Shown: positions 725 through 19,561, counted from the first letter of the stretch. The stretch is 64,000 bases of DNA from a bacterium (GCA_030603245.1 JAUVYE010000001.1:1418-65417); one strand, 5' to 3'. Notes: generated by a model from the sequence alone, not told the origin. Translations and numbers: made by a program.

Positions 725-1312
725 TTATTTCTTTTTGGCTTTAATCACCTCATCAACAATACCATATTTTTTAGCATCTTCGGCTGATAAATAAAAATCT
801 CGGTCAGTATCTTTTTCAATCTTTTTCAATGATTGACCAGTATGTTGAGCTAAAATCTGATTTAATTTATTCTTAATTTTCATAATCTGCTTAGCAGTAA
901 TCTCAATTTCTACTGCTTGTCCTTTTACACCCCCAGCTACTTGATGCAAGAGAATCTCGGAGTTGGGAAGAGTAAATCTTTTGCCCTTATTGCCGGCTGC
1001 TAATAAAACAGCGCCCATTGAACCAGCTAAACCAACACAAACAGTAGAAATAGGACATTCAATATATTGCATTGTGTCGTAAATAGCTAAACCTGCTGTG
1101 ACTGAGCCGCCAGGAGTATTAATATAGAGCTTAATGTCTTTTTTCGGATCTTTAGAAGCTAAAAATAAAAGTTGAGCAATAACTGAGTTGGCTAAATTAT
1201 CATCTACCATACCACCCAAAAAAATTATTCTGTCTTTTAAAAGACGGGAGTAAATATCATATGCTCTTTCTCCGCGACTAGTTTTTTCAATTACAGTTGG
1301 AATTAAGATCAT
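725..1312 (-). CDS. clpP: ATP-dependent Clp protease proteolytic subunit
   Basis: Strong full-length ClpP-like sequence ([31 protein letters not shown], about 195 aa). Confidence 0.9.
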
Positions 1313-1330
1313 TTTCTAAAAATTTCTTAC

Positions 1331-4188: not shown

Positions 4189-4201
4189 ATTTTTTGTTTT
4201 T

Positions 4202-5404
4202 TTATTTATTTTTTATTTTTTTCTTTTTTGATTTCTTTTTAGGAGTTGTTTCTTTTTTTTCCTCTTTTTTTTCTTCCTCCTGTTTTTCTTCCAACTCTAC
4301 CTCAGAACCCCTAACATCAATTTTCCAGCCCGTAAGTTTGGCAGCCAATCTTACATTTTGACCGTCTTTACCAATAGCTAAAGATAATTGATCTTCTGGA
4401 ACAACACAAAGAACTTTATTTTTGGGTAAAACTTTTACCTCTAAAACCTTGGCTGGAGATAAAGCATTAGCAATAAATTTTTCTGGGTCTTCTGACCACT
4501 CAATAATATCAATTTTCTCTCCGCCCAACTCATTGATCACTGCCTGAACTCTTGTTCCCCTTTGACCTACAGATGCTCCAATCGGATCAATTTCTTCAAT
4601 AGTGGAAGCAACCGCAATTTTAGTTCGAGAACCAGGCTCTCGAGCAATAGACTTTATCTCAACCTGACCAGCTGCAATCTCAGGAACCTCTAATTCAAAC
4701 AGTTTTGAAATTAATTTAGGATAAGCTCTTGATAAAAAAATTTTAGGACCCTTGCTCGTATCTTCCACCTTAAGAACAAAAACTTTTAATCTTTGACCAG
4801 GCCGATAAAACTCTCCAGGAACTTGCTCTTCTCTAATTAAAATTCCCAAGGCCTTACCAATATCAAAAAAAACATTTCTGCCTTCAATACGTTGAACAAT
4901 TCCAGAAACAATTTCTCCTTGCTTATCTTGATATTCTTCAAAAATACTTTCTCGTTCTGCCTCTCTTAATTTCTGCATTATTACTTGTTTAGCAGTTTGG
5001 GCAGCAATCCGACCATAATCTTTTTGGGCTTTAAGAGAAATTTTAAGCTCGTCGCCAGGTTTAATCTTTTTCTTTATTTTCTTTGCTTCATCAATCATAA
5101 TATGTTTTTCTGGATTAAACTTGATTTTCTTGTCTTCCTCTTCTTTTACTTTTTCGCTTTTAATCTCTTCTAATTCTTCCTCCGAATAAATCATACTTTC
5201 ATCAACCACTATTTTAATTTGTAAAAACTTAACTTTACCTGATTCTGAATCAAGTTTGGCTTGGATAATTTGTCCCCTTTTTCCGTAGTCTTTTTTATAA
5301 GCAGCAGCAATTGCCTGTTCAATGGTTTCTAAAACCTTTTCTGAAGAAATACCTTTTTCTTCAGCAATCTGCTTAACTGCTGATGCAAAATCTTTTAAAT
5401 CCAT
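4202..5404 (-). CDS. nusA: Transcription termination/antitermination factor NusA with Lys-rich C-terminal tail
   Basis: NusA N-domain, S1 and tandem KH-like regions (GQRLKVFVLKV..., IGKDGQNVRLAAKLTGWKIDV). Confidence 0.85.
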   Translation of the reverse strand: MDLKDFASAVKQIAEEKGISSEKVLETIEQAIAAAYKKDYGKRGQIIQAKLDSESGKVKFLQIKIVVDESMIYSEEELEEIKSEKVKEEEDKKIKFNPEKHIMIDEAKKIKKKIKPGDELKISLKAQKDYGRIAAQTAKQVIMQKLREAERESIFEEYQDKQGEIVSGIVQRIEGRNVFFDIGKALGILIREEQVPGEFYRPGQRLKVFVLKVEDTSKGPKIFLSRAYPKLISKLFELEVPEIAAGQVEIKSIAREPGSRTKIAVASTIEEIDPIGASVGQRGTRVQAVINELGGEKIDIIEWSEDPEKFIANALSPAKVLEVKVLPKNKVLCVVPEDQLSLAIGKDGQNVRLAAKLTGWKIDVRGSEVELEEKQEEEKKEEKKETTPKKKSKKKKIKNK

Positions 5405-5422
5405 GTTGTTTTTAATAAAAGC

Positions 5423-5440
5423 GTCCGTTTTTTAACGGAC
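5423..5440 (-). terminator. Putative intrinsic terminator downstream of plsY-like gene
   Basis: Perfect 7-bp stem GTCCGTT/AACGGAC with a 4-nt loop. On the minus strand it is followed by a U-rich stretch, and it sits between the plsY stop and the nusA start. Confidence 0.35.
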
Positions 5441-5462
5441 CTGCCTTTAAGTATAACAAAGT

Positions 5463-6116
5463 CTATTTACTTGTCAACTTTTTAACTATTTTCTTTATTC
5501 TAAAGTCCTTAGTAACATCATCATCAAAAATTAAACGATTTCTGAATAAACGACACTTGTCTTTAGATTGTTTTAATTCCTGTATTGGACTTAAACGCTT
5601 TAAGAAAATAGGAAGAAGAGATAAAACAGCAAACAACCTAATATATGATAAACCAAGCTTATCACTATAATAAATTACTGTAGCTAAAGCCACAATAGTA
5701 CCAATACAAAGATTCCAAATTATTCCTAATGAAATAAGAGGAATTAAGAAAAGTTTTAAAAACTCAGGATTAAAAGCCAAAAGCGCTCCCCCAAAAGTTC
5801 CTATGCCCCTGCCTCCATTAAAACTTAAAAACAAAGACCAATTATGTCCTATCACAACTGCTACTCCGCATAAAACCTGAACTAAAGCCGGCTCTCCATA
5901 ATGTTGAGCTATTTTGACTGAAATATATCCTTTTAAAATATCAAAGAGGCCGGTAAAAAATCCTTGCAAAAACCCTATATTCTTGAAAACATTAGAGCCA
6001 GATGTTTTTCTCCATCCAATTTCTAAAATGTTTTTTCTGGTTGAAACTTTAGTAAAAATATATCCAAAAGGAATAGAGCCTAAAATATAAGATAAGAATA
6101 TATATAAAATACTCAT
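5463..6116 (-). CDS. plsY: Glycerol-3-phosphate acyltransferase PlsY-family membrane protein
   Basis: N-terminal (Y)ILGSIPFGYIFTK motif and a polytopic 217-aa membrane protein typical of PlsY (acyl-phosphate:G3P acyltransferase). Confidence 0.6.
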   Translation of the reverse strand: MSILYIFLSYILGSIPFGYIFTKVSTRKNILEIGWRKTSGSNVFKNIGFLQGFFTGLFDILKGYISVKIAQHYGEPALVQVLCGVAVVIGHNWSLFLSFNGGRGIGTFGGALLAFNPEFLKLFLIPLISLGIIWNLCIGTIVALATVIYYSDKLGLSYIRLFAVLSLLPIFLKRLSPIQELKQSKDKCRLFRNRLIFDDDVTKDFRIKKIVKKLTSK

Positions 6117-6895
6117 TTTTTCTTTAATTTTAATCTTCCCTTTTCTTTAACAGCTTTTACAAACTGTTTAACTAATTTTTTAACATCTTTGGTTTTTTCA
6201 GCCGCTGTTCCAACAAAAATACAATCAGCACCTGCCTCAATAACCTTACCTGCCTGAGCTGGGGTTCTGATCCCGCCCCCAACAATATAAACCATATCAC
6301 CAATTGTTTTTCTTACAGCTTTTATTATTTCAACAGGAATATGATCAAAAGCAGCTGAACCAGCATCAGTAAAAACAAATCTTTTACCTGATAATCTGGC
6401 AGCTAAAGCTAAAGCAGCAGCAATGTTTGGTTTGTTTCTGGGAACCAAATTCGCATCTCCTACCCAGCCAGCTGTTCCTCCTGGATCAAACAAAATATAA
6501 CCCAAAGGCAATGGCTCTATGCCTAATTTCTGAATAATAGGAGCTGAAAGCGTTTGAACTTCAGAAATCCAATAAGGATTCCGAGAATTTAATAAACTCA
6601 TAAATAAAATGGCGTCAGCATAACGAGAAATAGTAGCAATGTTGCCTGGAAATAAGACTATTGGAATATCTGTTTTCTGCTTAATCCCCTTAATTACTGT
6701 GTCTAAAAGCTCACCCTGAGCTTGAGTACTACCTCCCACACTTAAAAAATCAACCCCTGCTTCAACCGCAGCTAAAGCAGTGTTTATTGCTTTTTGAGTA
6801 GAAGTATAGTCGCAAGGGTCAATCAAAATTGACAGTAAAGCACCCTCTTTCTTGATTTTTTCTTTAATATATTTTTCAACTTTTCCTATTTTCAT
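6113..6895 (-). CDS. Geranylgeranylglyceryl phosphate synthase family (GGGPS/PcrB-like prenyl-glycerol-phosphate ether synthase)
   Basis: TIM-barrel GGGPS/PcrB features: C-terminal VGGGIRTPAQAGKVIEAGADCIFVGTAAE and central FDPGGTAG. Overlaps the neighbouring polyprenyl synthase by 4 bp (operon). Confidence 0.75.
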   Translation of the reverse strand: MKIGKVEKYIKEKIKKEGALLSILIDPCDYTSTQKAINTALAAVEAGVDFLSVGGSTQAQGELLDTVIKGIKQKTDIPIVLFPGNIATISRYADAILFMSLLNSRNPYWISEVQTLSAPIIQKLGIEPLPLGYILFDPGGTAGWVGDANLVPRNKPNIAAALALAARLSGKRFVFTDAGSAAFDHIPVEIIKAVRKTIGDMVYIVGGGIRTPAQAGKVIEAGADCIFVGTAAEKTKDVKKLVKQFVKAVKEKGRLKLKKK

Positions 6896-7983
6896 ATTTT
6901 TCTTTCAATCAAATAATTAACAAATTCGTTCAACCTTTCTTTGGCAGGAGAAGCAACTAACAATTTATCTGTTTCAGCCCAAGCTTGTTTCATAATCTCT
7001 CTAGCTCTTTTTTGGGCATATTCTACACTGCCATATTTTTTTATTATTTCTATTGCCTCTGTTCTTTCTTTTGTATCATCGGTGTGTTTGTTCAAAATTT
7101 CTATCAACCTTTTTCTATCTTCTTCTGTTGCTTTTTCCAGAGTATGAATAACCATTAAAGTTCTTTTTCCCTCAGTTATATCCATTCCAAGCCCACCCTT
7201 TCCTTTAGCAAATTTCTCTCCCACAATATCAAGAATATCGTCTTGAATCTGAAAAGCAACACCCATGGCTTCAGCAACCTTGCCAGCTGCTTCAGCCAAT
7301 TCATCGCTCGCACCAGCTAAAATAACAGCTAATTTAGCTGACATTCTAGAAAGACAACCTGTTTTAAAAGCGCACATTTGCAAATACTCTTCTTCTTTTA
7401 TATCTTCTACACCTCCCCGATGCCAATAAATATCAGTTCCCTGGCCCAAACTTAAATTAATCATTTCCTGAACATATATTTCGTAAGCTTTAACTAAAAT
7501 TTCTGGTTTAAATTTATCTCTATTCTTTGATAATGCTAATAAGGGGAAAAAATAAAGAAAATTACCAGCATTTAAAGCAATATCAATGCCAAAAATCTTA
7601 TGAAGAACAGTCTTGCCCCTTCTTAACTCCCCGTCATCTTCAATATCATCAATAATAATTGTTCCGTTATGAATCAATTCTGGAATAATAACAATGTCTT
7701 TAATTTTTTCCATGTCTCCATTAACGGCCTGGGTAATCAAAAGGAATAAAATTGGACGCCATCTTTTTCCTCCACGACTAATAAAGTCCCAGGTAGGCCT
7801 TACTAAAGATTTATCAGCTGCATCTAGGCTGTAAGAGTAGCGGGGAACACCAAAGGTGAACTCAAGCCACTTTTTATCTATATTTTTGGGAATGTATTTT
7901 TCGATAATTCCATCAATCTCGGGCTTCATTTTCTCTAAATACTCTATAAAGTTTCCTTTTTTTATTTCGTCTGAATTAGACAT
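6892..7983 (-). CDS. Polyprenyl (geranylgeranyl) diphosphate synthase
   Basis: Both Asp-rich motifs of trans-isoprenyl diphosphate synthases are present: DDIEDDGELRRGK (first DDxxD) and FQIQDDILD (second). Confidence 0.8.
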   Translation of the reverse strand: MSNSDEIKKGNFIEYLEKMKPEIDGIIEKYIPKNIDKKWLEFTFGVPRYSYSLDAADKSLVRPTWDFISRGGKRWRPILFLLITQAVNGDMEKIKDIVIIPELIHNGTIIIDDIEDDGELRRGKTVLHKIFGIDIALNAGNFLYFFPLLALSKNRDKFKPEILVKAYEIYVQEMINLSLGQGTDIYWHRGGVEDIKEEEYLQMCAFKTGCLSRMSAKLAVILAGASDELAEAAGKVAEAMGVAFQIQDDILDIVGEKFAKGKGGLGMDITEGKRTLMVIHTLEKATEEDRKRLIEILNKHTDDTKERTEAIEIIKKYGSVEYAQKRAREIMKQAWAETDKLLVASPAKERLNEFVNYLIERKI

Positions 7984-8077
7984 AGGTTTAATTTTGAATT
8001 TTTTATTTTATAATTAATAATTATACTTTGACAAAAGTTTACTTGCAATTGTTAAAATTTTGTTTATCATCTAACTT

Positions 8078-8872
8078 ATGAATGCTTGGATAGAAATAAT
8101 TCGTCCTGCCACGTCATTATTAGCTGCTATAGGAGCTGTGGTCGGTGCTGTAATTGCTGGAGTTCCTTTTTCTATTGATTTTGTTTATGTGTTTTTAGCT
8201 GTTTGGTTTGTTACTGGGGCTGGCATGGTAATTAATGATTATTATGATATAGAAATAGACAGAATTAATGCTCCTCATCGGCCATTGCCCAGTGGCAGAA
8301 TATCAAGAAAAAATGCTTTGTCCTATAGTGTTTTCTTGTTTTGTTTAGGCCTTGTTTTTTCCGCTTTCTTAAATATTTATTGTTTTGTTCTTGTGCTTTT
8401 TAATGGCTTGATTGAATTCTTTTACGCTAAAATCTATAAAAAATGGTGGCTGTTCGGAAATATACTGGTTAGCTGGTTAGCAGGCTCTGTTTTCATTTTT
8501 GGGGGTCTGATTACTTTTGACTTTAGACTAATCTGGATTGTATCCTTATTAGCATTTTTGTCAAACATGGGAAGAGAAATTTTCAAGTCGATTGAGGATG
8601 TAAGAGGAGATAAAAAAATGAAGTTAGATACCCTTCCCGTATCTTCGGGCACTAAAACAGCCAAAGAAATTGCCCAGGGATTTATTGCTTCAGCTATTTT
8701 ATTTTCCAATCTTCCCTATTTATCAGGGCTATTAAGGGCAAGCTATCTCAAAATTGCTGCTTTTGGAAATGCTATCTTTTTTTATTCTCTTTATGAAAAA
8801 CCCAATAAAATTAAATTAATGACCAAGATAGCAATGCTAATTATTGTCTTGGCTATCCTATTTAGTTTTTAA
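8078..8872 (+). CDS. UbiA-family prenyltransferase, digeranylgeranylglyceryl phosphate synthase (DGGGPS)-like
   Basis: UbiA signature NDYYDIEIDRINAPHRPLPSGRIS and a polytopic 264-aa membrane protein. Sits in the GGGPS/GGPPS/GGR context. Confidence 0.7.
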   Translation: MNAWIEIIRPATSLLAAIGAVVGAVIAGVPFSIDFVYVFLAVWFVTGAGMVINDYYDIEIDRINAPHRPLPSGRISRKNALSYSVFLFCLGLVFSAFLNIYCFVLVLFNGLIEFFYAKIYKKWWLFGNILVSWLAGSVFIFGGLITFDFRLIWIVSLLAFLSNMGREIFKSIEDVRGDKKMKLDTLPVSSGTKTAKEIAQGFIASAILFSNLPYLSGLLRASYLKIAAFGNAIFFYSLYEKPNKIKLMTKIAMLIIVLAILFSF

Positions 8873-10006
8873 TTATCCAAAGCTTGTTCCGCTTTTACGT
8901 AAAATAAAAAATAACTTTGTAATCTTAAAAGCGTTTCTTCTTAATTCTGGTTTAGAAACAAGATTAAAAACACCAGAAAGGGTTTCAAACGCAGATAACC
9001 CTTTTTTGTTTAGAGCTTCTACTAATTCATCTAAAACTGAATTAGAAAGAGAATATAATATTTTTTGAGCAACGATTAAATCACGACTCAAAAACGGTAA
9101 AGACTTAATTTTCTTTTCAAAAACATGAGGCGTATTAGAAAGAATACATTGAGCAGCAATCTTGGCTGAAACCATGGCATTGTTTATTCCTCCTCCTAAA
9201 ACTGGATCCACAAGAGCAGCAGCATCTCCTACTAAAAAAACCTTATCTTTATACAATTTTATTTTAGCTCCGCCCCAGGTAATGGTGCCACTTCTATTTT
9301 CTAAAAGCTTATAATTACCAAATTCTGGTTTTACAAACTTCTCCATAAAATATTTAAATCTTTGGTCAAGATTGCTCTTCCCTCCTAAACCAATATTGGC
9401 TCTGTTTTTAGATTTAGGAAATATCCAGACATAACCCTCTGGAAATCTTTCTTTATCAAAATACATCTTTATTACTGATACTGGTATTTCTTTCTCCAAT
9501 TCAACCAAATATTCATAAGTGGGCAAAACTTCAATCTTTTCTTTTGGAAAAAGCTTTGTTCTAACAATTGAAAGGGGACCATCAGCCCCAATTAAATATT
9601 CACTTTGAAAAACCTCTTCTTGGGCTGTTTTAACTTTCCAAAAACCACCTCCTTTTTCAATATTAACCACTTTAGTATTAAGCTTAATCTCAGCTTTACA
9701 TTTTTGAGCTAGAGCTTTTTCAAAAGCCGGTCTATTGATGATATATCCCAATTTCTCACCTTTAAAACTGGCTTTCCTTCCTGAAGCAATGTAAACCTCA
9801 ATTGTATCAATAGTTGTAGAAATCCAGGCAGGATTTGGTTCAATGCCATTTCTTTCCAATGATTCCTGACTAATGCCCTCAGCGCATTGAACTGGTATTC
9901 CAATCTCTTTTTCCTTTTCCAAAATTAAAGCATCCTTTAAATATATTCCAGCTGTTAAACCAGCTGGACCTGCTCCAATAATGATTGTTTTAAATACATT
10001 CTTCAT
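8873..10006 (-). CDS. FAD-dependent geranylgeranyl reductase family protein
   Basis: N-terminal Rossmann FAD motif IIIGAGPAGLTAG and overall geranylgeranyl reductase-family layout (377 aa). Confidence 0.7.
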   Translation of the reverse strand: MKNVFKTIIIGAGPAGLTAGIYLKDALILEKEKEIGIPVQCAEGISQESLERNGIEPNPAWISTTIDTIEVYIASGRKASFKGEKLGYIINRPAFEKALAQKCKAEIKLNTKVVNIEKGGGFWKVKTAQEEVFQSEYLIGADGPLSIVRTKLFPKEKIEVLPTYEYLVELEKEIPVSVIKMYFDKERFPEGYVWIFPKSKNRANIGLGGKSNLDQRFKYFMEKFVKPEFGNYKLLENRSGTITWGGAKIKLYKDKVFLVGDAAALVDPVLGGGINNAMVSAKIAAQCILSNTPHVFEKKIKSLPFLSRDLIVAQKILYSLSNSVLDELVEALNKKGLSAFETLSGVFNLVSKPELRRNAFKITKLFFILRKSGTSFG

Positions 10007-10638
10007 TTATTTTTCCCTCTAAAATACCATTTAGGTCTGGCTCCTTTTAGAACTGGGATAAAGTGGGGCCATTGCTTAATAAAAATAGGTGTGGCTATTA
10101 AAACGCAAAGTAAAAAATATTCTGGAACTAAAAAATAACCGATTAAAGGCAAGAAAATATTTCCCATAAATTGACCGAAAAAAAACGTCTGAGTAGCTAA
10201 AACAAACAAAAGACAACTCAAAGCCCAGGGCAAAAATAACCACTTAAAGTTTAGGGTCATCAAAACTCCGGCTAAACATGCTTGGGCTTTGCCGCCAGAA
10301 AACTTATTGTCTTTAATCTTAAAATAAAGAGAAAAACAATGACCTAAAACTACTCCAAAACCAGCTAAGCTAATTGCCCAAACAAGATTATAATTTAAAC
10401 AAGTAAATTTTTGAGGAATTAAAACAGACAAAGCTCCTTTTCCTGTATCTACAAAAACAGTTAAAAGAAATAATAAAGGTTTTCCTGTTATTCGCATCAC
10501 ATTCATTGCTCCTACATTTTTAGATTCTTGCTTTCTAACATCTTTATTAACAGATTCTTTAACAATCAAATAAGCTGTGGGAAAAGAACCCAAAACATAG
10601 GCAAGGATAAAAAATAAAATTAAATAAATATTGAACAT
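10003..10638 (-). CDS. Second, divergent PlsY-family membrane protein
   Basis: LGSFPTAYLIVK N-terminal motif and a (S)KNVGAMNVMRITGK region resembling the PlsY GSGNxGATNxxR motif. 211-aa polytopic protein. Confidence 0.5.
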   Translation of the reverse strand: MFNIYLILFFILAYVLGSFPTAYLIVKESVNKDVRKQESKNVGAMNVMRITGKPLLFLLTVFVDTGKGALSVLIPQKFTCLNYNLVWAISLAGFGVVLGHCFSLYFKIKDNKFSGGKAQACLAGVLMTLNFKWLFLPWALSCLLFVLATQTFFFGQFMGNIFLPLIGYFLVPEYFLLCVLIATPIFIKQWPHFIPVLKGARPKWYFRGKNK

Positions 10639-10643
10639 ATTTT

Positions 10644-12317
10644 TTAGTGGTTATTAATAACGGTCCAGGAAACAATTAAACTCCCAGAATCCATGTCCAA
10701 AGAGCTGGAATTGGTAAAAGAAACTTCGGCCTGAATCTCTTTAAGTTTATTTTTCAATTTCTTTGCTTCTTCTAAATTCTCACAATGAGTAATAACTATT
10801 CTGATTTTTCTGCCCTGTTTTCGATACTTTCTGCTTCTTAGTTTTATTTCCCTGAATATTGCGTTTGAAACATCTTTTGTCATTAGGTGAATTCCATTCT
10901 TAATTATTTTTCCTCTCTTAATGCCGAACAATGGTTGAGCTCCAATTCTTTGTAATCTTTTTGCCCACCTAACTTGAGAGTATGAAATTTTGCTTATTTT
11001 TTTTATTTTCTCAAGTTTGGACAAAAACAAATAAGTATGAATATGAGAAATTGTTTTGTTTAATTCTTTAATAACCTCTTGGATTTCTCTTTGTTCTTTA
11101 ATCAGTTCAATTGCTCTTAAAATTAAAAGGGCTTGGCCAGAACTAATATTAAAAGAGTTTAAAACATAAATTTTTGAAGGATCTTCTAATTTTGACCTTA
11201 CTTCCATGGCTTGATTATAGTCTGAAGAATCAGTAATGATTAAAACTTTTTTAAAGCTTTTGAGTTGTTCTTTATAAACTTCAAGAAAATTTTGAGACCT
11301 AACTATCTTAATTTTGTATCTTTCAATAATTTTTGCTGTTAAATCAGCTGTTTGATCAGTAATAATGCCAATAGAAACATCTTTTAATGAATCTTCCCCA
11401 ACTGCTTCTTTGGCCATATCTTCAATCCTCATATTTTCAATTCGACCAGCCTGTCTTATAAATTCTTTAACCTCGTCTATTAAATCAGTGTGAATATGAA
11501 TTTTCATTTTATTTTTAACCGTAACTATGTCTAAAGAATTGCCCAATTTTGACAATTTATCTTTAATCTCTTTTTCGCTAAATTTTGGATTCTTAATCAA
11601 AGCCACAATTTCATAACGGTTAGAAATAGTTTGAATAAACCTTTTTGCTTTTTCTGATGGTTTTTCTTTCCCCAACTCACGGATCGTTTTTATGTCTTTC
11701 TCTCCCTCAACTTCCAAAACTTCTAGAAAACTTTCAAGAATGATTAAAAAACCAAGGCCTCCAGCATCAACCACATTTGCTTTTTTCAAAATCTCCAGTT
11801 TTTCCTGAGTTTCTAACAATGCTTGATGAGCTTCTCCAGCTGCTTTTTCAAGAATAACAGCAATGTCTTTTTCGTTCTCAACCTGTTTTTCAAGACTTTG
11901 AGCAGTAGCTTTCATTACATCTAAAATAGTTCCCTCTTTTGGATTTTGAATGCTTTTCTCAGCCCTTTCAAACCCTTGCTTAAAAGCTTGGGTTAATTTA
12001 TGGGCATTAATTGATTTTTCGTTTCCAAAAACAGGCAAAAATCCAGCTAAAAAGCCGGTATAAATTATACCAGCGTTTCCTTGGGCTGCGATCATGGCTC
12101 CATCTAAAATAGCTTCTGAAATTTCGCCCAAATTATTAAAATCCCTGTTTTCAATTTGTTGTTTTATTCCTAATAAGGTATAAGCCAGGTTGGTTCCTGT
12201 ATCTTGGTCTGGCACTGGGAAAACATTAATCTTATTAATTTCTTGTTTTTCTTTCTCAACCCTTTCCCAGGAAAAAAGCATCATCTTTTTCAATTCCCTT
12301 TGAGTCAAATAATCCAT
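10644..12317 (-). CDS. DAK2-domain fatty acid kinase FakA / YloV-like protein
   Basis: Dak2 motif VFPVPDQDTGTN near the N-terminus and ~557-aa length, typical of the FakA/YloV family. Confidence 0.7.
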   Translation of the reverse strand: MDYLTQRELKKMMLFSWERVEKEKQEINKINVFPVPDQDTGTNLAYTLLGIKQQIENRDFNNLGEISEAILDGAMIAAQGNAGIIYTGFLAGFLPVFGNEKSINAHKLTQAFKQGFERAEKSIQNPKEGTILDVMKATAQSLEKQVENEKDIAVILEKAAGEAHQALLETQEKLEILKKANVVDAGGLGFLIILESFLEVLEVEGEKDIKTIRELGKEKPSEKAKRFIQTISNRYEIVALIKNPKFSEKEIKDKLSKLGNSLDIVTVKNKMKIHIHTDLIDEVKEFIRQAGRIENMRIEDMAKEAVGEDSLKDVSIGIITDQTADLTAKIIERYKIKIVRSQNFLEVYKEQLKSFKKVLIITDSSDYNQAMEVRSKLEDPSKIYVLNSFNISSGQALLILRAIELIKEQREIQEVIKELNKTISHIHTYLFLSKLEKIKKISKISYSQVRWAKRLQRIGAQPLFGIKRGKIIKNGIHLMTKDVSNAIFREIKLRSRKYRKQGRKIRIVITHCENLEEAKKLKNKLKEIQAEVSFTNSSSLDMDSGSLIVSWTVINNH

Positions 12318-12325
12318 ACAATGGT

Positions 12326-12979
12326 TTAGCGAATTTTTTCCTCAAACTCTTTTAAGATTTTAGCTGCTATGTCTTTACCCCCCAAACCAAAAGCAACACC
12401 AACAGCTATTACTATAGCGCCCACAAAACCAACAAAAATAGTTAAGATCAATGTAGGAGCTATCTGAAGCTGGTAAAGAATAGCTAAGGTAGCTAGGCTC
12501 CAAATTATCCAACGAATTATTCTTCCTAAAAACCGGGAGTAAGTTATTTTTTCTTCCTCTAAAACAGCAAACATAATCTTTTGAGAAAAATCAGCCAGAA
12601 AAACAGCAATAATAAAAATTAAACAAGCAACAAAAATATTAGGGAAATAACTGATTGTCTCACCTAAAAGCTGACTAAATTGAGGAAGCCCAATAATCTC
12701 AACTGAAGTCATTAAAAAGAGAATGACAAAAAAGCATCTAACTATATTTCCAAAAAACTGCACAGCATTAAAACGAATATCTGTCTCAAATAAACTTTCT
12801 TCAAAATTCAATCTTTTCAAAGCCTGATTCAAACGGATTTTGTCTAAGAATCGAACAACAATATTACCAGCCCACTTAGAAACTAAAAGACCAGTCAGAA
12901 AAACTAAGATTGCCCATAAAAGCTGGGGGAGATTTTCAACAAAGCTTTCTAAAAATAAGTTTAAAAAATCTTGTGCCAT
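12326..12979 (-). CDS. Hypothetical polytopic membrane protein (possible conserved-TM-helix / MscS-related)
   Basis: Several predicted TM helices and no recognisable catalytic motif. Confidence 0.3.
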   Translation of the reverse strand: MAQDFLNLFLESFVENLPQLLWAILVFLTGLLVSKWAGNIVVRFLDKIRLNQALKRLNFEESLFETDIRFNAVQFFGNIVRCFFVILFLMTSVEIIGLPQFSQLLGETISYFPNIFVACLIFIIAVFLADFSQKIMFAVLEEEKITYSRFLGRIIRWIIWSLATLAILYQLQIAPTLILTIFVGFVGAIVIAVGVAFGLGGKDIAAKILKEFEEKIR

Positions 12980-12994
12980 ATTTATTATTTTACC

Positions 12995-13552
12995 CTACCA
13001 TTTATTCTTAGACAAGCCCATTCTAAATCCTATTTGAGTAGCAGCAATGTGCAATACAAAAGTTAAAACTAAAAGCATTGTCCAAACTTTAAAATCAATT
13101 TTAATCTCAGAAAAAAGATTTAAGAAAAAACCTGCTCCAATCACATAATTAATCTGATCAAAAGGCATAAATTTTGCTCCTGGTTTTAAGTCTAAGCGTC
13201 TTTTAATAAAAGCAAAGAACAAGTCCCCAAAAACTGCGCCAAAAACCATTAAAAGGCCAAAATACAGGCCTATTTCTTGATAATTTAAAAGACTGATTTC
13301 TCTGGTTGAAACACAATTATTAAAAAGCCATTTTTGAAGAAAAAGAATTAAAATGCCAGCAATTGGACCCAAAATAAGACCACGCCAAGTTTTATGATTA
13401 CCCAATAAAGGACGCCCCTTAAACTCTTTTCCATTATCAATTGGTCGGTCAAAACAATTAAAAACCCTTAACGACGCGGTTAAAGAGGGGATCATATTAG
13501 TAAAGTAAGCTGGGAGAAAAAAATAAAAACAAGATAGGATAAATTTAAACAT
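12995..13552 (-). CDS. CDP-archaeol synthase (CarS)-like / CdsA-like CTP:lipid cytidylyltransferase, short form
   Basis: 185-aa polytopic protein with GNHKTWRGL and GDLFFAFIKRRL motifs resembling the K-x-W-x-G and GDL..S..KR signatures of CdsA/CarS cytidylyltransferases. Its length fits CarS rather than the ~270-aa bacterial CdsA. Confidence 0.5.
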   Translation of the reverse strand: MFKFILSCFYFFLPAYFTNMIPSLTASLRVFNCFDRPIDNGKEFKGRPLLGNHKTWRGLILGPIAGILILFLQKWLFNNCVSTREISLLNYQEIGLYFGLLMVFGAVFGDLFFAFIKRRLDLKPGAKFMPFDQINYVIGAGFFLNLFSEIKIDFKVWTMLLVLTFVLHIAATQIGFRMGLSKNKW

Positions 13553-13596
13553 AAAATTTCTTGAAATTAATATTTTCTAAAGGTAAAATAAAAAAG

Positions 13597-14277
13597 ATGA
13601 AAGCAGACTTACACGTTCATACTTGCTATTCTTACGATAGTATATCTTTGCCGCAAGAGATAGTCAAAGCTGCTCTTAAAAATGGTTTAAACTGCATTGC
13701 TATTTGTGATCATGGAGAAATAAAAGGTGCTCTTGAGGCCATTAAATTTGCTTTTAACAAACCAATTTTAATTATTCCTGGGATTGAAATAAGAAGTAAA
13801 CAGGGAGATATTTTGGGCTTGAATATTAGAAAAATAATTCCTAATGGGCTTTCAGTAAAGCAAACAATTAAACAAATTAAAAAAGCAGGAGGCTTTGTTG
13901 TTATTCCTCATCCTTTTGGATTTAATTGCTCTTTTAAAGGAATATTGGAAGATTTTATTGACTCAATCGATGCAGTAGAAGTTTTAAATACTAATATTTT
14001 TAAAAAAGACAATCAAAAAGCTTTAAAGTTTGCTAAAAAACATAATTTAGCCTTTATAGCTAGTTCTGATGCCCATAGTCCAGAATTTGTAGGTAGGGGA
14101 TATCTTGAAATTCCAGGTGACCAACTTTCTGTCCAACAAATTTTTCAACAAATTAAAAATAAAAATGTTAGAATCATTGGTCGAGAAACTAATATTTTTG
14201 AAAAGGGAATTGCTTTTTTAAAAAGAAATTTATGTAAAATTGAATATTATGTTAGCAGAAAAAAGAAAAAGCTTTAA
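13597..14277 (+). CDS. PHP-domain metal-dependent phosphoesterase (ORF may start at 13561)
   Basis: MKADLHVHTCYSYDS N-terminal His motif plus downstream His/Asp positions typical of the PHP family. Confidence 0.65.
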   Translation: MKADLHVHTCYSYDSISLPQEIVKAALKNGLNCIAICDHGEIKGALEAIKFAFNKPILIIPGIEIRSKQGDILGLNIRKIIPNGLSVKQTIKQIKKAGGFVVIPHPFGFNCSFKGILEDFIDSIDAVEVLNTNIFKKDNQKALKFAKKHNLAFIASSDAHSPEFVGRGYLEIPGDQLSVQQIFQQIKNKNVRIIGRETNIFEKGIAFLKRNLCKIEYYVSRKKKKL

Positions 14278-14848
14278 AAAGCTTGAAAACATGGTTGGGA
14301 AATTCTTTTCTAAGTTCTTAAATCCTAATCAGTATTCTTATTTGGCAATCTTAATGGCTTTATTGTGTCTTAGGTTTTTAATAAAAAACAATTTAAAGAT
14401 TGCTTTGATTTTTCTATTCACAGCTTCTTTTTTAGATTTTATAGATGGAGCAGTGGCCAGAAAAACCAATACTGCTTCTAAAAAAGGAGCTTATTTAGAC
14501 ACAATTTTAGATCGCTATGTTGAGGGAATGGTTTTGCTTGGATTTTTGTTTTTACCTTTGCCCAAAATATTTTTACCTGCCCATGTTTGGATATATCTGG
14601 CTTTATTTGGTTCTTTAATGACAACTTATGCTAAAGCTGCTGGAAAAGAAAAGGGAATACTACAAACAGAATTAAAAAAAGGAGTGATTGGTAGGGGAGA
14701 AAGAATGATTTTAGAGTTTTTAGCTATATTTTTAGGAATATTTAATCTCCAGTGGACATTGTATTTAATTATTGTCCTATCTGTCCTATCTAATCTGACT
14801 GCTGTCCAAAGAATTTGTCTTATTCTGCATACCAAGCAACAGCCATAG
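14240..14848 (+). CDS. CDP-alcohol phosphatidyltransferase family protein (polar head-group transferase)
   Basis: Perfect signature D-x2-D-G-x2-A-R-x8-G-x3-D-x3-D in DFIDGAVARKTNTASKKGAYLDTILD. Membrane protein. Confidence 0.8.
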   Translation: MNIMLAEKRKSFKKLENMVGKFFSKFLNPNQYSYLAILMALLCLRFLIKNNLKIALIFLFTASFLDFIDGAVARKTNTASKKGAYLDTILDRYVEGMVLLGFLFLPLPKIFLPAHVWIYLALFGSLMTTYAKAAGKEKGILQTELKKGVIGRGERMILEFLAIFLGIFNLQWTLYLIIVLSVLSNLTAVQRICLILHTKQQP

Positions 14849-15701
14849 ATCCGGGCCCAACAATGCTTCCTATTATCTCATCAAGTAGATTTGCTGCAAC
14901 TATTTCTGTATTTTCCATATCTTTTTGAATCAAGTCTTGTAGTTTTTGACAAGCTTCAGGTGCTAAAGCATGAGAAATAAATATTTGAATTCTTTTACCC
15001 TCTTTTCTGTATTTTCTTGATTTTGACTCTATTTCCTTAAAAAGCGCTTCAGCTACATCTTTTACTCCTATTTTAATGCTTATTGGTTTAAGCACTCCTT
15101 TTTTCATGCCTAACAAGGGCCTTAACCCAATATTAGACATTTTACGAATCCAATTAGCTATAATTGAAGATATTCTGCCTGATGCTTCTAACCATTTAGG
15201 ATCTTTAAGCGCAACATAAAGAAAAGTTTTTGGAATAAGTTGTTCAAGTTCTTTTACAATTTCTTCTATTGGCTTATCTTGATTCACAAGATCAATTGCT
15301 TTTAAAACAATCAACCCCTCTCCAGCAGCAGCACTAAGCGTATCAACAATGAAAACTTTATTCTCTTGTTCTTCTGGTAAAAAACTTTTTGCCTGAATAG
15401 CTGAATTATATGTTCCTGACAGTTTTGAGGTAACAGTAATACAAATAAGCTTTTCGAATTTTTCTAATTGTTTCTTATAAAGATCCAAGTAAGCTTTTGG
15501 AGATGGTTGAGAGGTTTTACAGAAAACCTTTATTCCTCTCTTATCTGCTTCTTTCATTCTGTGAAAAACAGTCTCGCCTGGCAGACCTTCTATTTCTGGG
15601 GGCCATTCTACCTTAAGAGGAACCACTGCTATTTGATGTTTTTCTATAATATCTGGAGTTAAATCAGCCCCTTCGTCAATAACTAAACCAATTTTATTCA
15701 T
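14820..15701 (-). CDS. DegV-family fatty-acid-binding protein (FakB-like)
   Basis: DegV fold signature: N-terminal IGLVIDEGADL... and ~290 aa. Confidence 0.8.
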   Translation of the reverse strand: MNKIGLVIDEGADLTPDIIEKHQIAVVPLKVEWPPEIEGLPGETVFHRMKEADKRGIKVFCKTSQPSPKAYLDLYKKQLEKFEKLICITVTSKLSGTYNSAIQAKSFLPEEQENKVFIVDTLSAAAGEGLIVLKAIDLVNQDKPIEEIVKELEQLIPKTFLYVALKDPKWLEASGRISSIIANWIRKMSNIGLRPLLGMKKGVLKPISIKIGVKDVAEALFKEIESKSRKYRKEGKRIQIFISHALAPEACQKLQDLIQKDMENTEIVAANLLDEIIGSIVGPGSMAVAWYAE

Positions 15702-18890: not shown

Positions 18891-18960
18891 ATCTTTCTCC
18901 TCTTTTTTTGTAAAGGTCTATTTTCAGTCTAAGTATTTTAAAATTTTTGTCAATTTCAAG

Positions 18961-18976
18961 CCTTGCTTTTTTCAAT
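18961..18976. promoter_or_regulatory. Copy 2 of the repeated 16-mer CCTTGCTTTTTTCAAT, upstream of the J-domain/vWA operon
   Basis: Exact repeat of 17350-17365. Confidence 0.35.
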
Positions 18977-19014
18977 CAATCTGATACAATATTTTAATAA
19001 TGTTTATCTATTAT

Positions 19015-19090
19015 GCCCCTGTGGTCTAATGGATATGACGCTGCGCTTCGGACGCAGAGATTGTGGGTTCGACTCCTACCAGGGGTACCA
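19015..19090 (+). tRNA. tRNA-Arg (anticodon TCG), CCA encoded
   Basis: Cloverleaf with acceptor stem GCCCCTG/CAGGGGT, anticodon stem CTGCG/CGCAG, loop CTTCGGA and T-loop TTCGACT. A 3' CCA is present. Confidence 0.75.
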
Positions 19091-19102
19091 AAAAAGCGTA
19101 AA

Positions 19103-19561
19103 GTGAAAAACGTAAAGCATAAAACAAAAAGAAGAAGTCAAGTATTGTTTATAGCAACTCTTTTGCTTTTTTTGTTTTTTTGTTTAATTCCTGATTATAC
19201 TGAAGCTGGTTTAGTACCTTGTGGTCGTAGCGTAGACGATCCTAATACTCGAGACATAGATGAAACTGATTTTTGTACACTATGCCATCTTTTTATTCTT
19301 CTCAATAATATTTTCACTTACTTTTTCAAATTTATTCTGCCAGTCGTAGCTACTGGTTTAATTGCTTGGGGAGGATTTACTTTACTCATAGCTGGAGAAA
19401 GTAAAACTAAGTTTGAACAAGCAAAAAACATAATAACAGCTGCAGTAGTAGGATTAGTCATTATTTTGGCTTCCTGGATATTTTTAAATATGTTTTTATC
19501 TTCTATCGGAGTAGCTGAATGGACTAGATTGGGAAGCTGGTGGAAAATTGAATGCCCCTAA
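19103..19561 (+). CDS. Small VirB2/TrbC-like pilin-family membrane protein with LVPCGR...PNT...HLFIL motif (start uncertain: GTG 19103 or TTG 19145)
   Basis: The given ORF's ATG (19013) lies inside tRNA-Arg, so a downstream start is required. The protein has a basic N-region, a hydrophobic signal-like segment, the GLVPCGRSVDDPNTRDIDETDFCTLCHLFILLNNI motif and two TM helices separated by AGESKTKFEQAKNII. The same motif occurs at the C-terminus of the 880-aa protein at 27584-30226. Confidence 0.5.
   Translation: MKNVKHKTKRRSQVLFIATLLLFLFFCLIPDYTEAGLVPCGRSVDDPNTRDIDETDFCTLCHLFILLNNIFTYFFKFILPVVATGLIAWGGFTLLIAGESKTKFEQAKNIITAAVVGLVIILASWIFLNMFLSSIGVAEWTRLGSWWKIECP

What the first reader, a model, noticed from the sequence alone, without database searches (positions are those of the whole stretch)
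12995..14848. Short CarS-like cytidylyltransferase, PHP phosphoesterase and CDP-alcohol phosphatidyltransferase: possible head-group activation unit for ether lipids
The 185-aa polytopic protein carries K-T-W-R-G and GDL..AFIKRR motifs in a body length typical of archaeal CDP-archaeol synthase rather than ~270-aa bacterial CdsA. It sits divergently from a PHP-family phosphoesterase, which overlaps a CDP-alcohol phosphatidyltransferase. Together these could do CDP activation, head-group transfer and dephosphorylation (for example of a phospho-head-group intermediate), which would complete the ether-lipid pathway encoded upstream.
Basis: inference. Interest (0 to 1): 0.6.

Follow-up and report, generated by a model that had tools for sequence, protein, structure and literature searches.

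The report
Archaeal-type lipid head-group module in CPR bacterium
A tiny-genome (CPR/Patescibacteria) bacterium carries an archaeal-type CDP-lipid synthase next to a tightly coupled phosphatase and inositol-phosphate-type head-group transferase; together they probably make inositol phospholipids, from scavenged fatty acids and, in this lineage, probably also from archaeal-style ether lipids.

Summary
The window holds a 185-aa CarS-family cytidylyltransferase at 12995-13552 (-). Across a 44-bp spacer it faces a PHP phosphoesterase (true start 13597, end 14277, +). The PHP gene overlaps a CDP-alcohol phosphatidyltransferase by 29 nt (true start 14249, end 14848, +).

- **CarS, not CdsA:** full-length Pfam CarS match, and ApCarS 5GUF is the only significant fold match.
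- **Transferase:** it belongs with the inositol-phosphate users (AIPS, PIPS, DIPPS), not PgsA or PssA. It keeps their phosphate-binding arginines, so its product should need a phosphatase.
- **PHP as phosphatase candidate:** PHP precedes the transferase in 31 of 31 related species loci that have the transferase. A 39%-identical PHP lies beside a CAPT gene, with UbiA and CarS genes next to them, on a DPANN-type archaeal contig.

The ether-only reading is partly supported. The host is a Patescibacteria bacterium. In 80 related species the CarS gene is linked mainly to fatty-acid kinase, DegV and PlsY genes (50/80). GGGPS/DGGGPS-like genes appear in only 4/80. Gene order suggests a four-gene ether cassette was inserted into this older acyl-lipid locus.

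Substrates are inferred, not shown. No MIPS, G1PDH or CdsA gene was found in the window, and whole genomes could not be searched.

The parts
12995..13552 (-). CarS-family (archaeal-type) CTP:lipid-phosphate cytidylyltransferase, 185 aa, about 5 TM helices
   Evidence: Pfam PF01864 scores 100.5 bits over 1-175/175. NCBIfam NF003114 scores 132 bits, below its cutoff of 148. ApCarS 5GUF matches at E=3e-8 over residues 9-185. The AF2 model has pLDDT 87.7, and 5GUF is the only significant Foldseek hit, with TM 0.68/0.79.
13553..13596 (.). 44-bp divergent intergenic spacer between the CarS and PHP start codons; a promoter-like TTGAAA-17-TAAAAT lies at 13561-13589 (+)
   Evidence: Sequence read and consensus scan (10/12 match; consensus match only). 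A short divergent spacer is conserved, with a median of 43 nt in 39 species loci.
13597..14277 (+). PHP-family metal-dependent phosphoesterase, 226 aa, soluble, with an amphipathic and polybasic C-terminus; candidate lipid head-group phosphatase
   Evidence: Pfam PHP plus PHP_C; NF038032 scores 83 bits, above its cutoff of 80. H6, H8, D14, D38, H39, E64, H105, D158 and H160 are invariant. The AF2 model has pLDDT 93.2. The C-terminal helix has muH about 0.5, and the last 30 aa carry a net charge of +6.
14249..14848 (+). CDP-alcohol phosphatidyltransferase of the inositol-phosphate-using clade, 199 aa; overlaps the PHP gene by 29 nt
   Evidence: The best NCBIfam match is NF040950 (AIPS) at 130 bits, below its cutoff of 180. 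PIPS scores 73, pssA 39 and pgsA 27. The family profile against PDB gives DIPPS 65, AF2299 50 and PIPS 41-45 bits, but PgsA 19 and PssA 20. The motif DxxDGxxAR...G...D...D is intact.
12326..12979 (-). Small polytopic membrane protein with two MS_channel_1st_1 helices; constant downstream neighbour of CarS, function unknown
   Evidence: Pfam match. NF033912 scores 69 bits, below its cutoff of 100. It lies directly after CarS in 44 of 65 loci that have enough flank.
10644..12317 (-). FakA-like fatty-acid kinase (Dak2 + FakA middle domain) fused to a DegV domain
   Evidence: Pfam match. YloV TIGR03599 scores 267 bits and FakA NF038248 scores 159 bits; both are below their cutoffs.
10003..10638 (-). 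PlsY-family acyl-phosphate:glycerol-phosphate acyltransferase, paralogue 1; 4-nt overlap with GGR
   Evidence: Pfam G3P_acyltransf scores 109.6 bits. TIGR00023 scores 92 bits, below its cutoff.
8873..10006 (-). Geranylgeranyl reductase family flavoprotein
   Evidence: TIGR02032 scores 188.5 bits, above its cutoff of 158.8; Pfam GGR_cat also matches.
8078..8872 (+). UbiA prenyltransferase, closest to DGGGP synthase
   Evidence: NF009521 scores 235 bits, below its cutoff of 296.
6892..7983 (-). Short-chain (GGPP-type) polyprenyl diphosphate synthase
   Evidence: IdsA NF040698 scores 225 bits and GGPP_syn scores 181 bits; both are below their cutoffs.
6113..6895 (-). GGGP synthase (PcrB family)
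   Evidence: NF003198 scores 300.6 bits (cutoff 247) and TIGR01769 scores 200.7 bits (cutoff 161.6); both pass.
5463..6116 (-). PlsY-family paralogue 2; 4-nt overlap with GGGPS
   Evidence: TIGR00023 scores 96.9 bits, below its cutoff.
14820..15701 (-). DegV (FakB-like fatty-acid-binding protein), convergent with the transferase and overlapping its 3' end
   Evidence: Pfam DegV scores 181 bits. TIGR00762 scores 188 bits, above its cutoff.

Best explanation
The three genes are a conserved polar-head-group module of a Patescibacteria (CPR) membrane-lipid locus.

**Step 1 (family shown, substrate inferred).** The CarS-type enzyme condenses CTP with a membrane lipid phosphate to give a CDP-lipid.

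**Step 2 (family and pocket shown, acceptor inferred).** The CDP-alcohol phosphatidyltransferase transfers the lipid phosphate onto a phosphorylated alcohol. [quoted passage not shown] **Step 3 (inferred from gene coupling only).** The PHP metallophosphoesterase is translated from the same bicistron. Its amphipathic, polybasic C-terminus would hold it at the membrane. It removes the terminal phosphate to give an inositol phospholipid.

The module is not ether-specific. It is an old part of a locus built around fatty-acid kinase (FakA-like, DegV) and PlsY, so across CPR its usual substrate is most likely acyl-based phosphatidic acid made from scavenged fatty acids. In this lineage a four-gene ether cassette (GGR, DGGGPS-like UbiA, GGPPS, GGGPS) sits inside that locus. 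Here the same CarS-type enzyme probably also, or mainly, activates a DGGGP-type ether lipid.
For: **CarS identity.** Shown.

**CDP-lipid product.** In other lineages the CarS domain is fused to a CDP-alcohol transferase domain (P0489, Ca. Nomurabacteria). It is also fused to PAP2 or DUF212 membrane phosphatase domains (P0403, P0406, P0486, P0504).

**Transferase.**
- It scores far better against inositol-phosphate users than against PgsA or PssA.
- The MtPgsA1 residues that hold the inositol-phosphate phosphate are R94, S132, Y133, K135, R155 and R195 (PMC6506517).
- They align to R89, T126, Y127, K129, R152 and R188, which are invariant in the CPR family.

**PHP coupling.**
- In 31 of 31 species loci that have the transferase, PHP lies directly upstream on the same strand.
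- The two genes overlap in 17 loci and are at most 20 nt apart in 26.
- The pair stays together in 4 loci where it has moved relative to CarS.
- PHP and CarS are divergent neighbours in 39 loci.
- A 39%-identical PHP lies directly upstream of a CAPT gene, with UbiA and CarS genes next, on a DPANN-type contig whose SMC is archaeal-type.
- The PHP metal ligands are all conserved.
- None of the window ORFs put through Pfam is another lipid phosphatase (PgpA, PAP2); several mid-size and large ORFs were not scanned.

**Acyl context.**
- FakA, DegV or PlsY lie within 10 kb of CarS in 50 of 80 loci.
- The tight operon PlsY-CarS-MSTM-FakA-DegV-DegV-PlsY-PlsY has gaps of -8 to 39 nt in three of the four lineages printed; the fourth, L084, has one 946-nt gap.
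- Nealsonbacteria loci add thiolase, FabG, FabA/NMO and PlsC-like genes.
- Lipids of CPR-size cells were all acylglycerols (PMC7242380).

**Ether context here.** GGGPS passes its equivalog cutoff. GGR, a DGGGPS-like UbiA and GGPPS lie in the same interleaved operons.
Against: - The CarS-like and AIPS-like proteins both miss the NCBIfam equivalog cutoffs (132 against 148; 130 against 180).
- Archaeal CarS discriminates strongly against acyl phosphatidic acid and does not complement an E. coli cdsA mutant (review PMC9385802). An acyl substrate would therefore need a changed specificity.
- No inositol-1-phosphate synthase gene and no G1P dehydrogenase gene were found in the 64-kb window.
- The nearest characterised relatives of the PHP protein are nucleotide or RNA phosphoesterases (RNase AM, pAp phosphatase) at about 20-27% identity. 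None is a lipid enzyme.
- 28 of 80 related loci have no PHP within 10 kb, and 12 have PHP next to CarS with no adjacent transferase.
- On the DPANN contig the transferase next to PHP belongs to a different CAPT subfamily.
- The term searches run here on the one CPR lipidome paper read (PMC7242380) returned no inositol or ether lipids assigned to CPR; the paper was not searched for 'inositol'.
Confidence: 0.5

Rival explanations
1. One reading: the unit is dedicated to ether lipids. CarS makes CDP-archaeol from the DGGGP produced by the upstream genes. The transferase makes archaetidylinositol phosphate and PHP dephosphorylates it. The bacterium would then have a complete archaeal-type pathway.
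For: CarS-type fold and motifs. AIPS is the best transferase model. GGPPS, GGGPS, DGGGPS-like UbiA and GGR lie in the same cluster, with overlapping genes. Known CarS enzymes prefer DGGGP (PMC9385802). On the DPANN contig a PHP-CAPT pair is followed directly by UbiA and CarS genes.
Against: The same CarS/PHP/transferase module occurs in at least 27 species, of which only three have GGGPS/UbiA within 10 kb. The constant partners of CarS are FakA-like, DegV and PlsY. The ether genes look inserted between two PlsY genes; compare L012 and L034 with the window. No G1P dehydrogenase gene is in the window.
Confidence: 0.15
2. Acyl-only version: the CarS-type protein has replaced CdsA and serves only fatty-acyl phosphatidic acid made through FakA/DegV/PlsY. 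The ether cassette products are not phospholipid precursors, or they are handled otherwise.
For: Operon PlsY-CarS-MSTM-FakA-DegV-DegV-PlsY-PlsY. Acyl genes lie near CarS in 50 of 80 loci. No ORF resembling E. coli CdsA, other than CarS itself, was found in the window or in about 1.3 Mb of related loci. CPR-fraction lipids were all acylglycerols (PMC7242380).
Against: In this window GGR overlaps PlsY1 in the CarS operon and GGGPS overlaps PlsY2, so the ether and acyl genes are co-transcribed. Characterised CarS enzymes reject acyl substrates (PMC9385802). CdsA absence was tested only locally.
Confidence: 0.2
3. The transferase uses glycerol-3-phosphate (or glycerol-1-phosphate) rather than inositol phosphate. 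The pair would then be a PGP/AGP synthase with PHP as the PGP phosphatase.
For: The conserved pocket shows only that the acceptor carries a phosphate. No MIPS gene is in the window. Phosphatidylglycerols correlated with Parcubacteria abundance in PMC7242380. IMG annotates several homologues as phosphatidylglycerophosphate synthase.
Against: The PgsA models score 27 bits (NCBIfam) and 19 bits (PDB 7DRJ), against 130 and 41-65 bits for inositol-phosphate users. R89, next to the fourth Asp, is a feature of inositol-phosphate users (PMC6506517).
Confidence: 0.2
4. PHP has no role after the transferase. Either it is a nucleotide/RNA phosphoesterase kept nearby by inherited synteny, or it acts before CarS, stripping head groups or pyrophosphates from scavenged lipids to supply lipid phosphate.
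For: The closest characterised structures are RNase AM and pAp phosphatase. In 12 loci PHP sits next to CarS with no adjacent transferase. PAP2-CarS and DUF212-CarS fusions could equally mean that a phosphatase acts upstream.
Against: The PHP-transferase gene overlap is conserved, and the pair moves as a unit. The transferase product is predicted to carry a phosphomonoester. The amphipathic, polybasic C-terminus suits a membrane-surface enzyme.
Confidence: 0.2

Closest known systems
Archaeal CDP-archaeol synthase CarS (A. fulgidus CarS; A. pernix CarS, PDB 5GUF)
   Same: Same Pfam family over its full length and the same size (about 180 aa, 5 TM). The motifs G-x-x-K-T-x-x-G, GD...KRR and DQ are conserved. 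5GUF is the only significant fold match, with TM 0.68/0.79.
   Different: The host is a bacterium. The score falls below the NCBIfam equivalog cutoff. Its conserved gene partners are bacterial fatty-acid kinase, DegV and PlsY genes rather than GGGPS/DGGGPS. Substrate preference is unknown, whereas archaeal CarS rejects acyl phosphatidic acid (PMC9385802).
Two-step inositol phospholipid route: AIP synthase (Methanothermobacter) or PIP synthase (Mycobacterium PgsA1, Bacteroides BT_1523), followed by a phosphatase (BT_1525, PgpA family)
   Same: The transferase is closest to AIPS and PIPS and keeps their phosphate-binding residues. A phosphatase gene sits in the same cluster, as in Bacteroides (PMC6506517; PMC9246714).
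   Different: The adjacent phosphatase is a PHP-family enzyme, not PgpA. The review read here (PMC9385802) names no gene for the archaeal AIP phosphatase. No MIPS gene is seen nearby. The transferase misses the AIPS and PIPS equivalog cutoffs.
Bacteria with archaeal ether-lipid genes (Ca. Cloacimonetes and other FCB-group bacteria; Villanueva et al. 2021, PMC7852524)
   Same: The window has GGGPS plus a DGGGPS-like UbiA, a polyprenyl synthase and GGR in a bacterial genome, with no G1P dehydrogenase found. That paper already notes one Parcubacteria genome with GGGPS and DGGGPS.
   Different: Cloacimonetes lack CarS and are proposed to rely on bacterial CdsA, PgsA and Pgp. Here an archaeal-type CarS and an AIPS-like transferase are present, and no CdsA-like ORF is seen locally.
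PHP-family phosphoesterases (histidinol phosphatase HisJ, RNase AM/TrpH, Cv1693 pAp phosphatase, TM0559)
   Same: Same fold and the complete set of metal ligands.
   Different: About 20% identity to all solved members. It has an extra amphipathic, polybasic C-terminal helix. It forms a conserved bicistron with a membrane lipid transferase. No PHP enzyme acting on a lipid head group came up in the structure matches or in the papers read here.

Membership tests
CarS (CDP-archaeol synthase; PF01864 / NF003114) | Full-length profile match above the family threshold | tested here: inconclusive
   Pfam scores 100.5 bits against a cutoff of 22, over 1-175/175: met. The NCBIfam equivalog NF003114 scores 132.1 bits against a cutoff of 148: not met.
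CarS (CDP-archaeol synthase; PF01864 / NF003114) | Small five-helix membrane fold of ApCarS with a conserved CTP/metal site | tested here: met
   The AF2 model has pLDDT 87.7. Foldseek matches 5GUF at E=1.5e-4 with TM 0.68/0.79, and there is no other significant hit. K54-T55, G109-D110, K117-R118-R119 and D132-Q133 are invariant and align to ApCarS.
CarS (CDP-archaeol synthase; PF01864 / NF003114) | CTP:DGGGP cytidylyltransferase activity with preference for DGGGP over acyl phosphatidic acid | not testable with these tools
   This needs an enzyme assay. Gene context points to acyl partners in most relatives and ether partners in this window.
CdsA (bacterial CDP-diacylglycerol synthase; PF01148) | Full-length match to the ~270-aa, nine-helix CdsA core, including the C-terminal HGG..DR.D signature (signature recalled from own knowledge) | tested here: not met
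   Only a partial match of 31.8 bits, residues 52-130 against profile positions 168-238/264. TmCdsA 4Q2G scores E=0.095. Foldseek returns no CdsA hit. E. coli CdsA scores 20 bits or less against any relative.
Inositol-phosphate-using CDP-alcohol phosphatidyltransferases (AIPS NF040950, PIPS NF045883) | CAPT signature D-x2-D-G-x2-A-R-x8-G-x3-D-x3-D | tested here: met
   The signature reads DFIDGAVARKTNTASKKGAYLDTILD in the sequence. It is invariant in the family alignment.
Inositol-phosphate-using CDP-alcohol phosphatidyltransferases (AIPS NF040950, PIPS NF045883) | Score above the equivalog cutoff | tested here: not met
   AIPS scores 130.1 bits against 180 and PIPS scores 72.6 against 170. 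AIPS is still much the best model; pgsA scores 27 and pssA 39.
Inositol-phosphate-using CDP-alcohol phosphatidyltransferases (AIPS NF040950, PIPS NF045883) | Basic pocket that binds the inositol-phosphate phosphate (MtPgsA1 R94, K135, R155, R195) | tested here: met
   These align to R89, K129, R152 and R188, all invariant in the CPR family (residues from PMC6506517).
Inositol-phosphate-using CDP-alcohol phosphatidyltransferases (AIPS NF040950, PIPS NF045883) | A source of inositol-1-phosphate (MIPS) in the same genome | tested here: inconclusive
   No MIPS domain appeared in any window ORF scanned, nor in the neighbour ORFs tested. The rest of the genome is not available.
PHP metal-dependent phosphoesterases (PF02811 + PF13263) | PHP fold with a complete His/Asp/Glu metal-ligand set | tested here: met
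   Pfam PHP scores 49 bits and PHP_C 58 bits. NF038032 scores 83.4 bits, above its cutoff of 80. H6, H8, D14, H39, E64, H105, D158 and H160 are invariant. The model has pLDDT 93 and matches 2ANU, 7UG9 and 3E38.
Known phospholipid head-group phosphatases (PgpA including BT_1525, PgpB/PAP2, PgpC/HAD) | Homology to PgpA, PAP2 or HAD-type PGP phosphatases | tested here: not met
   The PHP protein has no such domain, and none of the window ORFs scanned has one. If it does this job, it is an analogue, not a member.

The most novel reading that the evidence does not exclude
Many Patescibacteria, and their DPANN archaeal counterparts, use an archaeal-type CarS as their only CDP-lipid synthase. In the bacteria it would accept fatty-acyl lipid phosphates, or mixed ether/ester ones, so it would be a natural enzyme working across the 'lipid divide'. 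The PHP protein coupled to the transferase would be the gene for archaetidyl/phosphatidyl-inositol-phosphate phosphatase, a step for which the archaeal-lipid review read here names no gene. This particular lineage, with its inserted GGGPS/DGGGPS/GGR cassette interleaved with PlsY genes, would then build a mixed or hybrid ether/ester membrane.
Probability: 0.3. Interest if true: 0.85.

Novelty: new variant of a known kind. Interest (0 to 1): 0.6.

Why it matters
CPR bacteria are usually described as unable to make their own membrane lipids. Which enzymes they use to assemble and re-head-group scavenged lipids is an open question.

- **Testable pathway.** This locus suggests FakA/DegV, then PlsY, then a CarS-type synthase, then an inositol-phosphate-type transferase, then a PHP phosphatase. 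It uses an enzyme family thought to be archaeal and selective for ether lipids.
- **If the CPR CarS accepts acyl substrates,** the CarS/CdsA split is not a strict barrier between the two membrane types.
- **If it makes CDP-archaeol here,** this is a bacterium with a more complete archaeal pathway than the FCB-group cases. Those lack CarS.
- **PHP as a candidate gene.** The conserved PHP-transferase bicistron, also seen beside CarS on a DPANN-type contig, offers a candidate for the phosphatase step of inositol lipid synthesis. Of the papers read here, only PMC9246714 identifies a gene for this step (a PgpA homologue in Bacteroides).

Tried and rejected
- **Genome-wide search for cdsA, MIPS, G1PDH, plsC and pgp genes.** This was not possible. 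Absence is therefore local only.
- **Function of PHP from structure.** The model is confident, but every close PDB neighbour is uncharacterised or a nucleotide/RNA enzyme at about 20% identity. No substrate call is possible.
- **Literature.** None found a paper discussing CarS in CPR. This library lacks most subscription journals, so prior description cannot be excluded. NCBI and IMG already auto-name these proteins CDP-archaeol synthase.
- **Naming the CarS representatives.** Only 1 of the 10 non-fusion representatives looked up and 3 of the 6 fusion proteins carried a name, so no labelled phylogeny was built.
- **'Pacearchaeota' labels.** Two loci carry this label. One of them, L044, carries bacterial RecA, so the label is probably wrong there. 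I did not count either locus as archaeal.
- **DIPP (compatible solute) synthesis.** I considered this because the top PDB hit is IPCT/DIPPS. I rejected it. No cytidylyltransferase domain for CDP-inositol is present, the AIPS model outscores the DIPPS model (130 against 72 bits), and CarS is the conserved partner.
- **CarS-like as a CTP-dependent lipid kinase.** I considered this and judged it unlikely because of the CAPT-CarS fusion.
Full report
**What is in the sequence.** The window is about 32% G+C and bacterial. It carries ClpP, trigger factor, NusA, DnaA, DnaN, a Mur ligase, YidC and RNase P protein.

The finding's three ORFs are present and belong to clear families:
- CarS-like: PF01864, 1.4e-28, covering the profile 1-175/175.
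- PHP plus PHP_C.
- CDP-OH_P_transf: 1.3e-17.

Homologue lengths correct two start codons. PHP starts at ATG 13597 (226 aa) and the transferase at ATG 14249 (199 aa). This leaves a 44-bp divergent spacer between CarS and PHP and a 29-nt PHP/transferase overlap. The TTG at 13561, which the ORF finder used as a start, is the -35-like hexamer of a promoter-like site. That site is a consensus match only.

- The CdsA Pfam model matches only residues 52-130, at 31.8 bits.
- By sequence, ApCarS (5GUF) matches over residues 9-185 at E=3e-8. Thermotoga CdsA reaches only E=0.095.
- The alignment shows GNHKTWRG/GDGKTIEG, GDLFFAFIKRRL/GDMAGSFVKRRL and FDQINY/LDQLDF.
- An AlphaFold model (pLDDT 87.7) has 5GUF as its only significant PDB fold match, with TM 0.68/0.79 and 27% identity. 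No CdsA appears among the hits.
- The one shortfall is the NCBIfam archaeal equivalog: 132 bits against a cutoff of 148.

It is a divergent member of the CarS family, not a short CdsA.

**The transferase.**
- The best NCBIfam model is archaetidylinositol-phosphate synthase at 130 bits, below its cutoff of 180. PIPS and DIPPS score about 72, pssA 39 and pgsA 27.
- A profile of 18 family members was run against PDB. It scores DIPPS 65, AF2299 50 and PIPS 41-45 bits, but PgsA 19 and PssA 20.
- In M. tuberculosis PgsA1 the inositol-phosphate phosphate is held by R94, S132, Y133, K135, R155 and R195 (PMC6506517).
- These align to R89, T126, Y127, K129, R152 and R188 here, all invariant in the family.

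The acceptor is therefore very probably a phosphorylated alcohol, most likely inositol-1-phosphate. The product would carry a phosphomonoester that has to be removed.

**The PHP protein.**
- All canonical PHP metal ligands are invariant, and the model is confident (pLDDT 93.2).
- Its nearest solved relatives are BVU_3505, TM0559, RNase AM and a pAp phosphatase, at about 20% identity. None is a lipid enzyme.
- It has no TM segment. It ends in an amphipathic helix (muH about 0.5) and a polybasic tail (net +6 in the last 30 residues). That suits a membrane-surface enzyme, but this is inference.

**Who has this, and with what neighbours.**
- Close homologues of all three proteins are Patescibacteria/CPR proteins: Parcubacteria, Nealsonbacteria, Paceibacterales and Minisyncoccales. 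NCBI and IMG already auto-name the first one 'CDP-archaeol synthase'.
- A scan of one genome per species found 166 species with a relative. I analysed the best 80 loci with ORF calling and HMMs built from the window's proteins.

Results for the 80 loci:
- The exact triad transferase<PHP<|>CarS occurs in 27.
- In 4 more, PHP>transferase is kept as a pair but has moved.
- The transferase never occurs without PHP (31/31).
- PHP precedes it on the same strand every time. The two genes overlap in 17 loci, by the same 29 nt in 14 of them, and are at most 20 nt apart in 26.
- PHP and CarS are divergent neighbours in 39 loci, with a median spacer of 43 nt.
- CarS>MSTM>FakA-like follows in 37 of 65 loci with enough flank.
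- FakA, DegV or PlsY lie within 10 kb in 50 of 80 loci.
- GGGPS/UbiA lie within 10 kb in 4 of 80, and any isoprenoid gene in 10 of 80.

In one set of lineages CarS sits inside a co-directional array, PlsY-CarS-MSTM-FakA-DegV-DegV-PlsY-PlsY. Gaps are -8 to 39 nt in three of the four lineages printed; L084 has one 946-nt gap, between FakA and the first DegV. In complete Nealsonbacteria genomes the module adjoins thiolase, FabG, FabA/NMO and two PlsC-like acyltransferases.

Compare L012 and L034 (FakA-...-PlsY-PlsY-NusA) with the window (FakA-PlsY1-GGR-UbiA-GGPPS-GGGPS-PlsY2-NusA). The four ether genes look like a cassette inserted between PlsY genes of an older acyl-lipid locus.

**Fusions and archaeal relatives.** An exhaustive profile search found 2107 CarS-like clusters. 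Among the top 150 are:
- a PAP2-CarS fusion;
- three DUF212 (divergent PAP2)-CarS fusions;
- a CAPT-CarS fusion from Ca. Nomurabacteria.

These tie the CarS domain to a CDP-alcohol transferase and to membrane phosphatases. That is the same three-activity logic as in the window, with a different phosphatase family.

The fourth-best cluster is from a 'Nanoarchaeota' MAG.
- Its contig reads PHP< PHP> CAPT> UbiA< CarS> CAPT< PgsA> PIG-L-like> GT4> ... SMC.
- Its SMC scores higher on the archaeal-type model (530 bits) than on the bacterial-type model (398 bits).
- Its second PHP is 39% identical to the window's.
- The transferase next to that PHP is a different CAPT subfamily, so only the PHP and CarS links carry across.

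Two further archaeal-type contigs show CAPT>DUF212-CarS, one of them with a PS decarboxylase.

**Interpretation.** The best-supported reading is a generic CDP-lipid head-group module: CarS-type activation, transfer to a phospho-alcohol, then PHP dephosphorylation.
- Across CPR it belongs to a fatty-acid salvage and assembly locus.
- In this lineage it is also positioned to serve an inserted ether-lipid cassette.
- This fits the report that lipids of CPR-size cells are acylglycerols. The same report noted that Nealsonbacteria have PlsY and PlsC but no PlsX (PMC7242380). The FakA-like/DegV genes seen here could supply the acyl-phosphate.

The reading conflicts with one piece of established knowledge. 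Archaeal CarS discriminates against acyl phosphatidic acid and cannot replace E. coli CdsA (PMC9385802). So either the CPR enzymes have changed specificity, or the acyl linkage is misleading.

Which lipid is activated, which alcohol is attached and what PHP hydrolyses are all inferences. No MIPS, G1PDH, PlsC or CdsA gene was found in the window. The only ORFs with any similarity to E. coli CdsA in the window plus about 1.3 Mb of related loci are the CarS-like proteins themselves. The rest of these genomes could not be searched.

**Novelty.**
- Bacterial GGGPS/DGGGPS are known in FCB-group bacteria, and one Parcubacteria genome has been noted. Those bacteria lack CarS (PMC7852524).
- Among the papers read here, the only gene identified for a bacterial PIP phosphatase is a PgpA homologue (PMC9246714). 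The archaeal-lipid review I read names no AIP phosphatase gene (PMC9385802).
- I found no paper discussing CarS in CPR, although databases auto-annotate it.

I rate this a new variant of a known pathway logic, of moderate to high interest. The main claims need biochemistry.

Noticed in passing
window 12326-12979 (-): A 217-aa polytopic protein with two 'MS_channel_1st_1' helices lies directly after the CarS gene in 44 of 65 related loci, usually between CarS and the FakA-like gene. Its function is unknown. It could be a membrane partner of the lipid pathway.
   Followed up: partly
window 5463-6116 (-) and 10003-10638 (-); loci L012, L071, L078, L081: There are two PlsY paralogues in the window, and three in several relatives' operons. 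None of the window ORFs put through Pfam is a PlsC or PlsX. In the window each PlsY overlaps an ether-lipid gene by 4 nt (GGGPS/PlsY2 and PlsY1/GGR). One paralogue might do the second acylation, or acylate GGGP to give a mixed ether/ester lipid. This was not tested.
   Followed up: partly
window 8078-10006 and 6113-7983, compared with L012 and L034: GGR, UbiA, GGPPS and GGGPS sit between two PlsY genes. In sister lineages those PlsY genes are adjacent. This suggests the ether cassette was inserted into an existing acyl-lipid locus.
   Followed up: partly
window 10644-12317 (-): The FakA-like kinase (Dak2 plus FakA middle domain) carries a C-terminal DegV-like domain where NCBI's FakA (FakA_VfrB) model matches only the N-terminal ~300 residues; separate DegV genes are also present. 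This could explain how PlsY gets acyl-phosphate in CPR genomes that lack PlsX, a gap noted in PMC7242380.
   Followed up: partly
proteins P0403, P0406, P0486, P0504, P0489, P0494; loci L090-L092: In other CPR and DPANN lineages the CarS domain is fused to PAP2, to DUF212 (divergent PAP2), to a CDP-alcohol transferase domain, or to a second CTP_transf-like domain.
   Followed up: yes
L089 (JBHPDN010000020.1, 'Nanoarchaeota archaeon') 1261-9371: This archaeal-type contig clusters two PHP genes, three CDP-alcohol transferases (one a bona fide PgsA type), UbiA, CarS, a PIG-L-like deacetylase and a GT4 glycosyltransferase. It also has a 509-aa radical SAM protein. It looks like a head-group diversification island in a DPANN genome.
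   Followed up: partly
window about 18900-19100 and 42185-43546: Gene orientation flips and cumulative GC skew reaches its minimum near 19-20 kb. dnaA/dnaN, with rnpA-yidC-jag upstream and a 26% G+C stretch, lie at 41-45 kb. The skew minimum and dnaA are therefore about 23 kb apart.
   Followed up: no
window 19013-19561 (+): The ORF finder's start for this T4SS-pilin-like protein overlaps tRNA-Arg (19015-19090). The real start must be further downstream. A homologous pilin gene is a frequent neighbour in related loci (32 of 80).
   Followed up: no
L044 and L064 (records labelled 'Candidatus Pacearchaeota archaeon'): Two records labelled as archaea carry the CPR-type CarS. L044 also carries a bacterial RecA and a ComM-like gene, so that taxonomic label is probably wrong. 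L064's neighbours were not annotated.
   Followed up: partly
L003 7684-8709 (-): In a close relative, a 341-aa ORF with no Pfam match overlaps the 3' end of the transferase gene. That position is occupied by DegV in the window.
   Followed up: no
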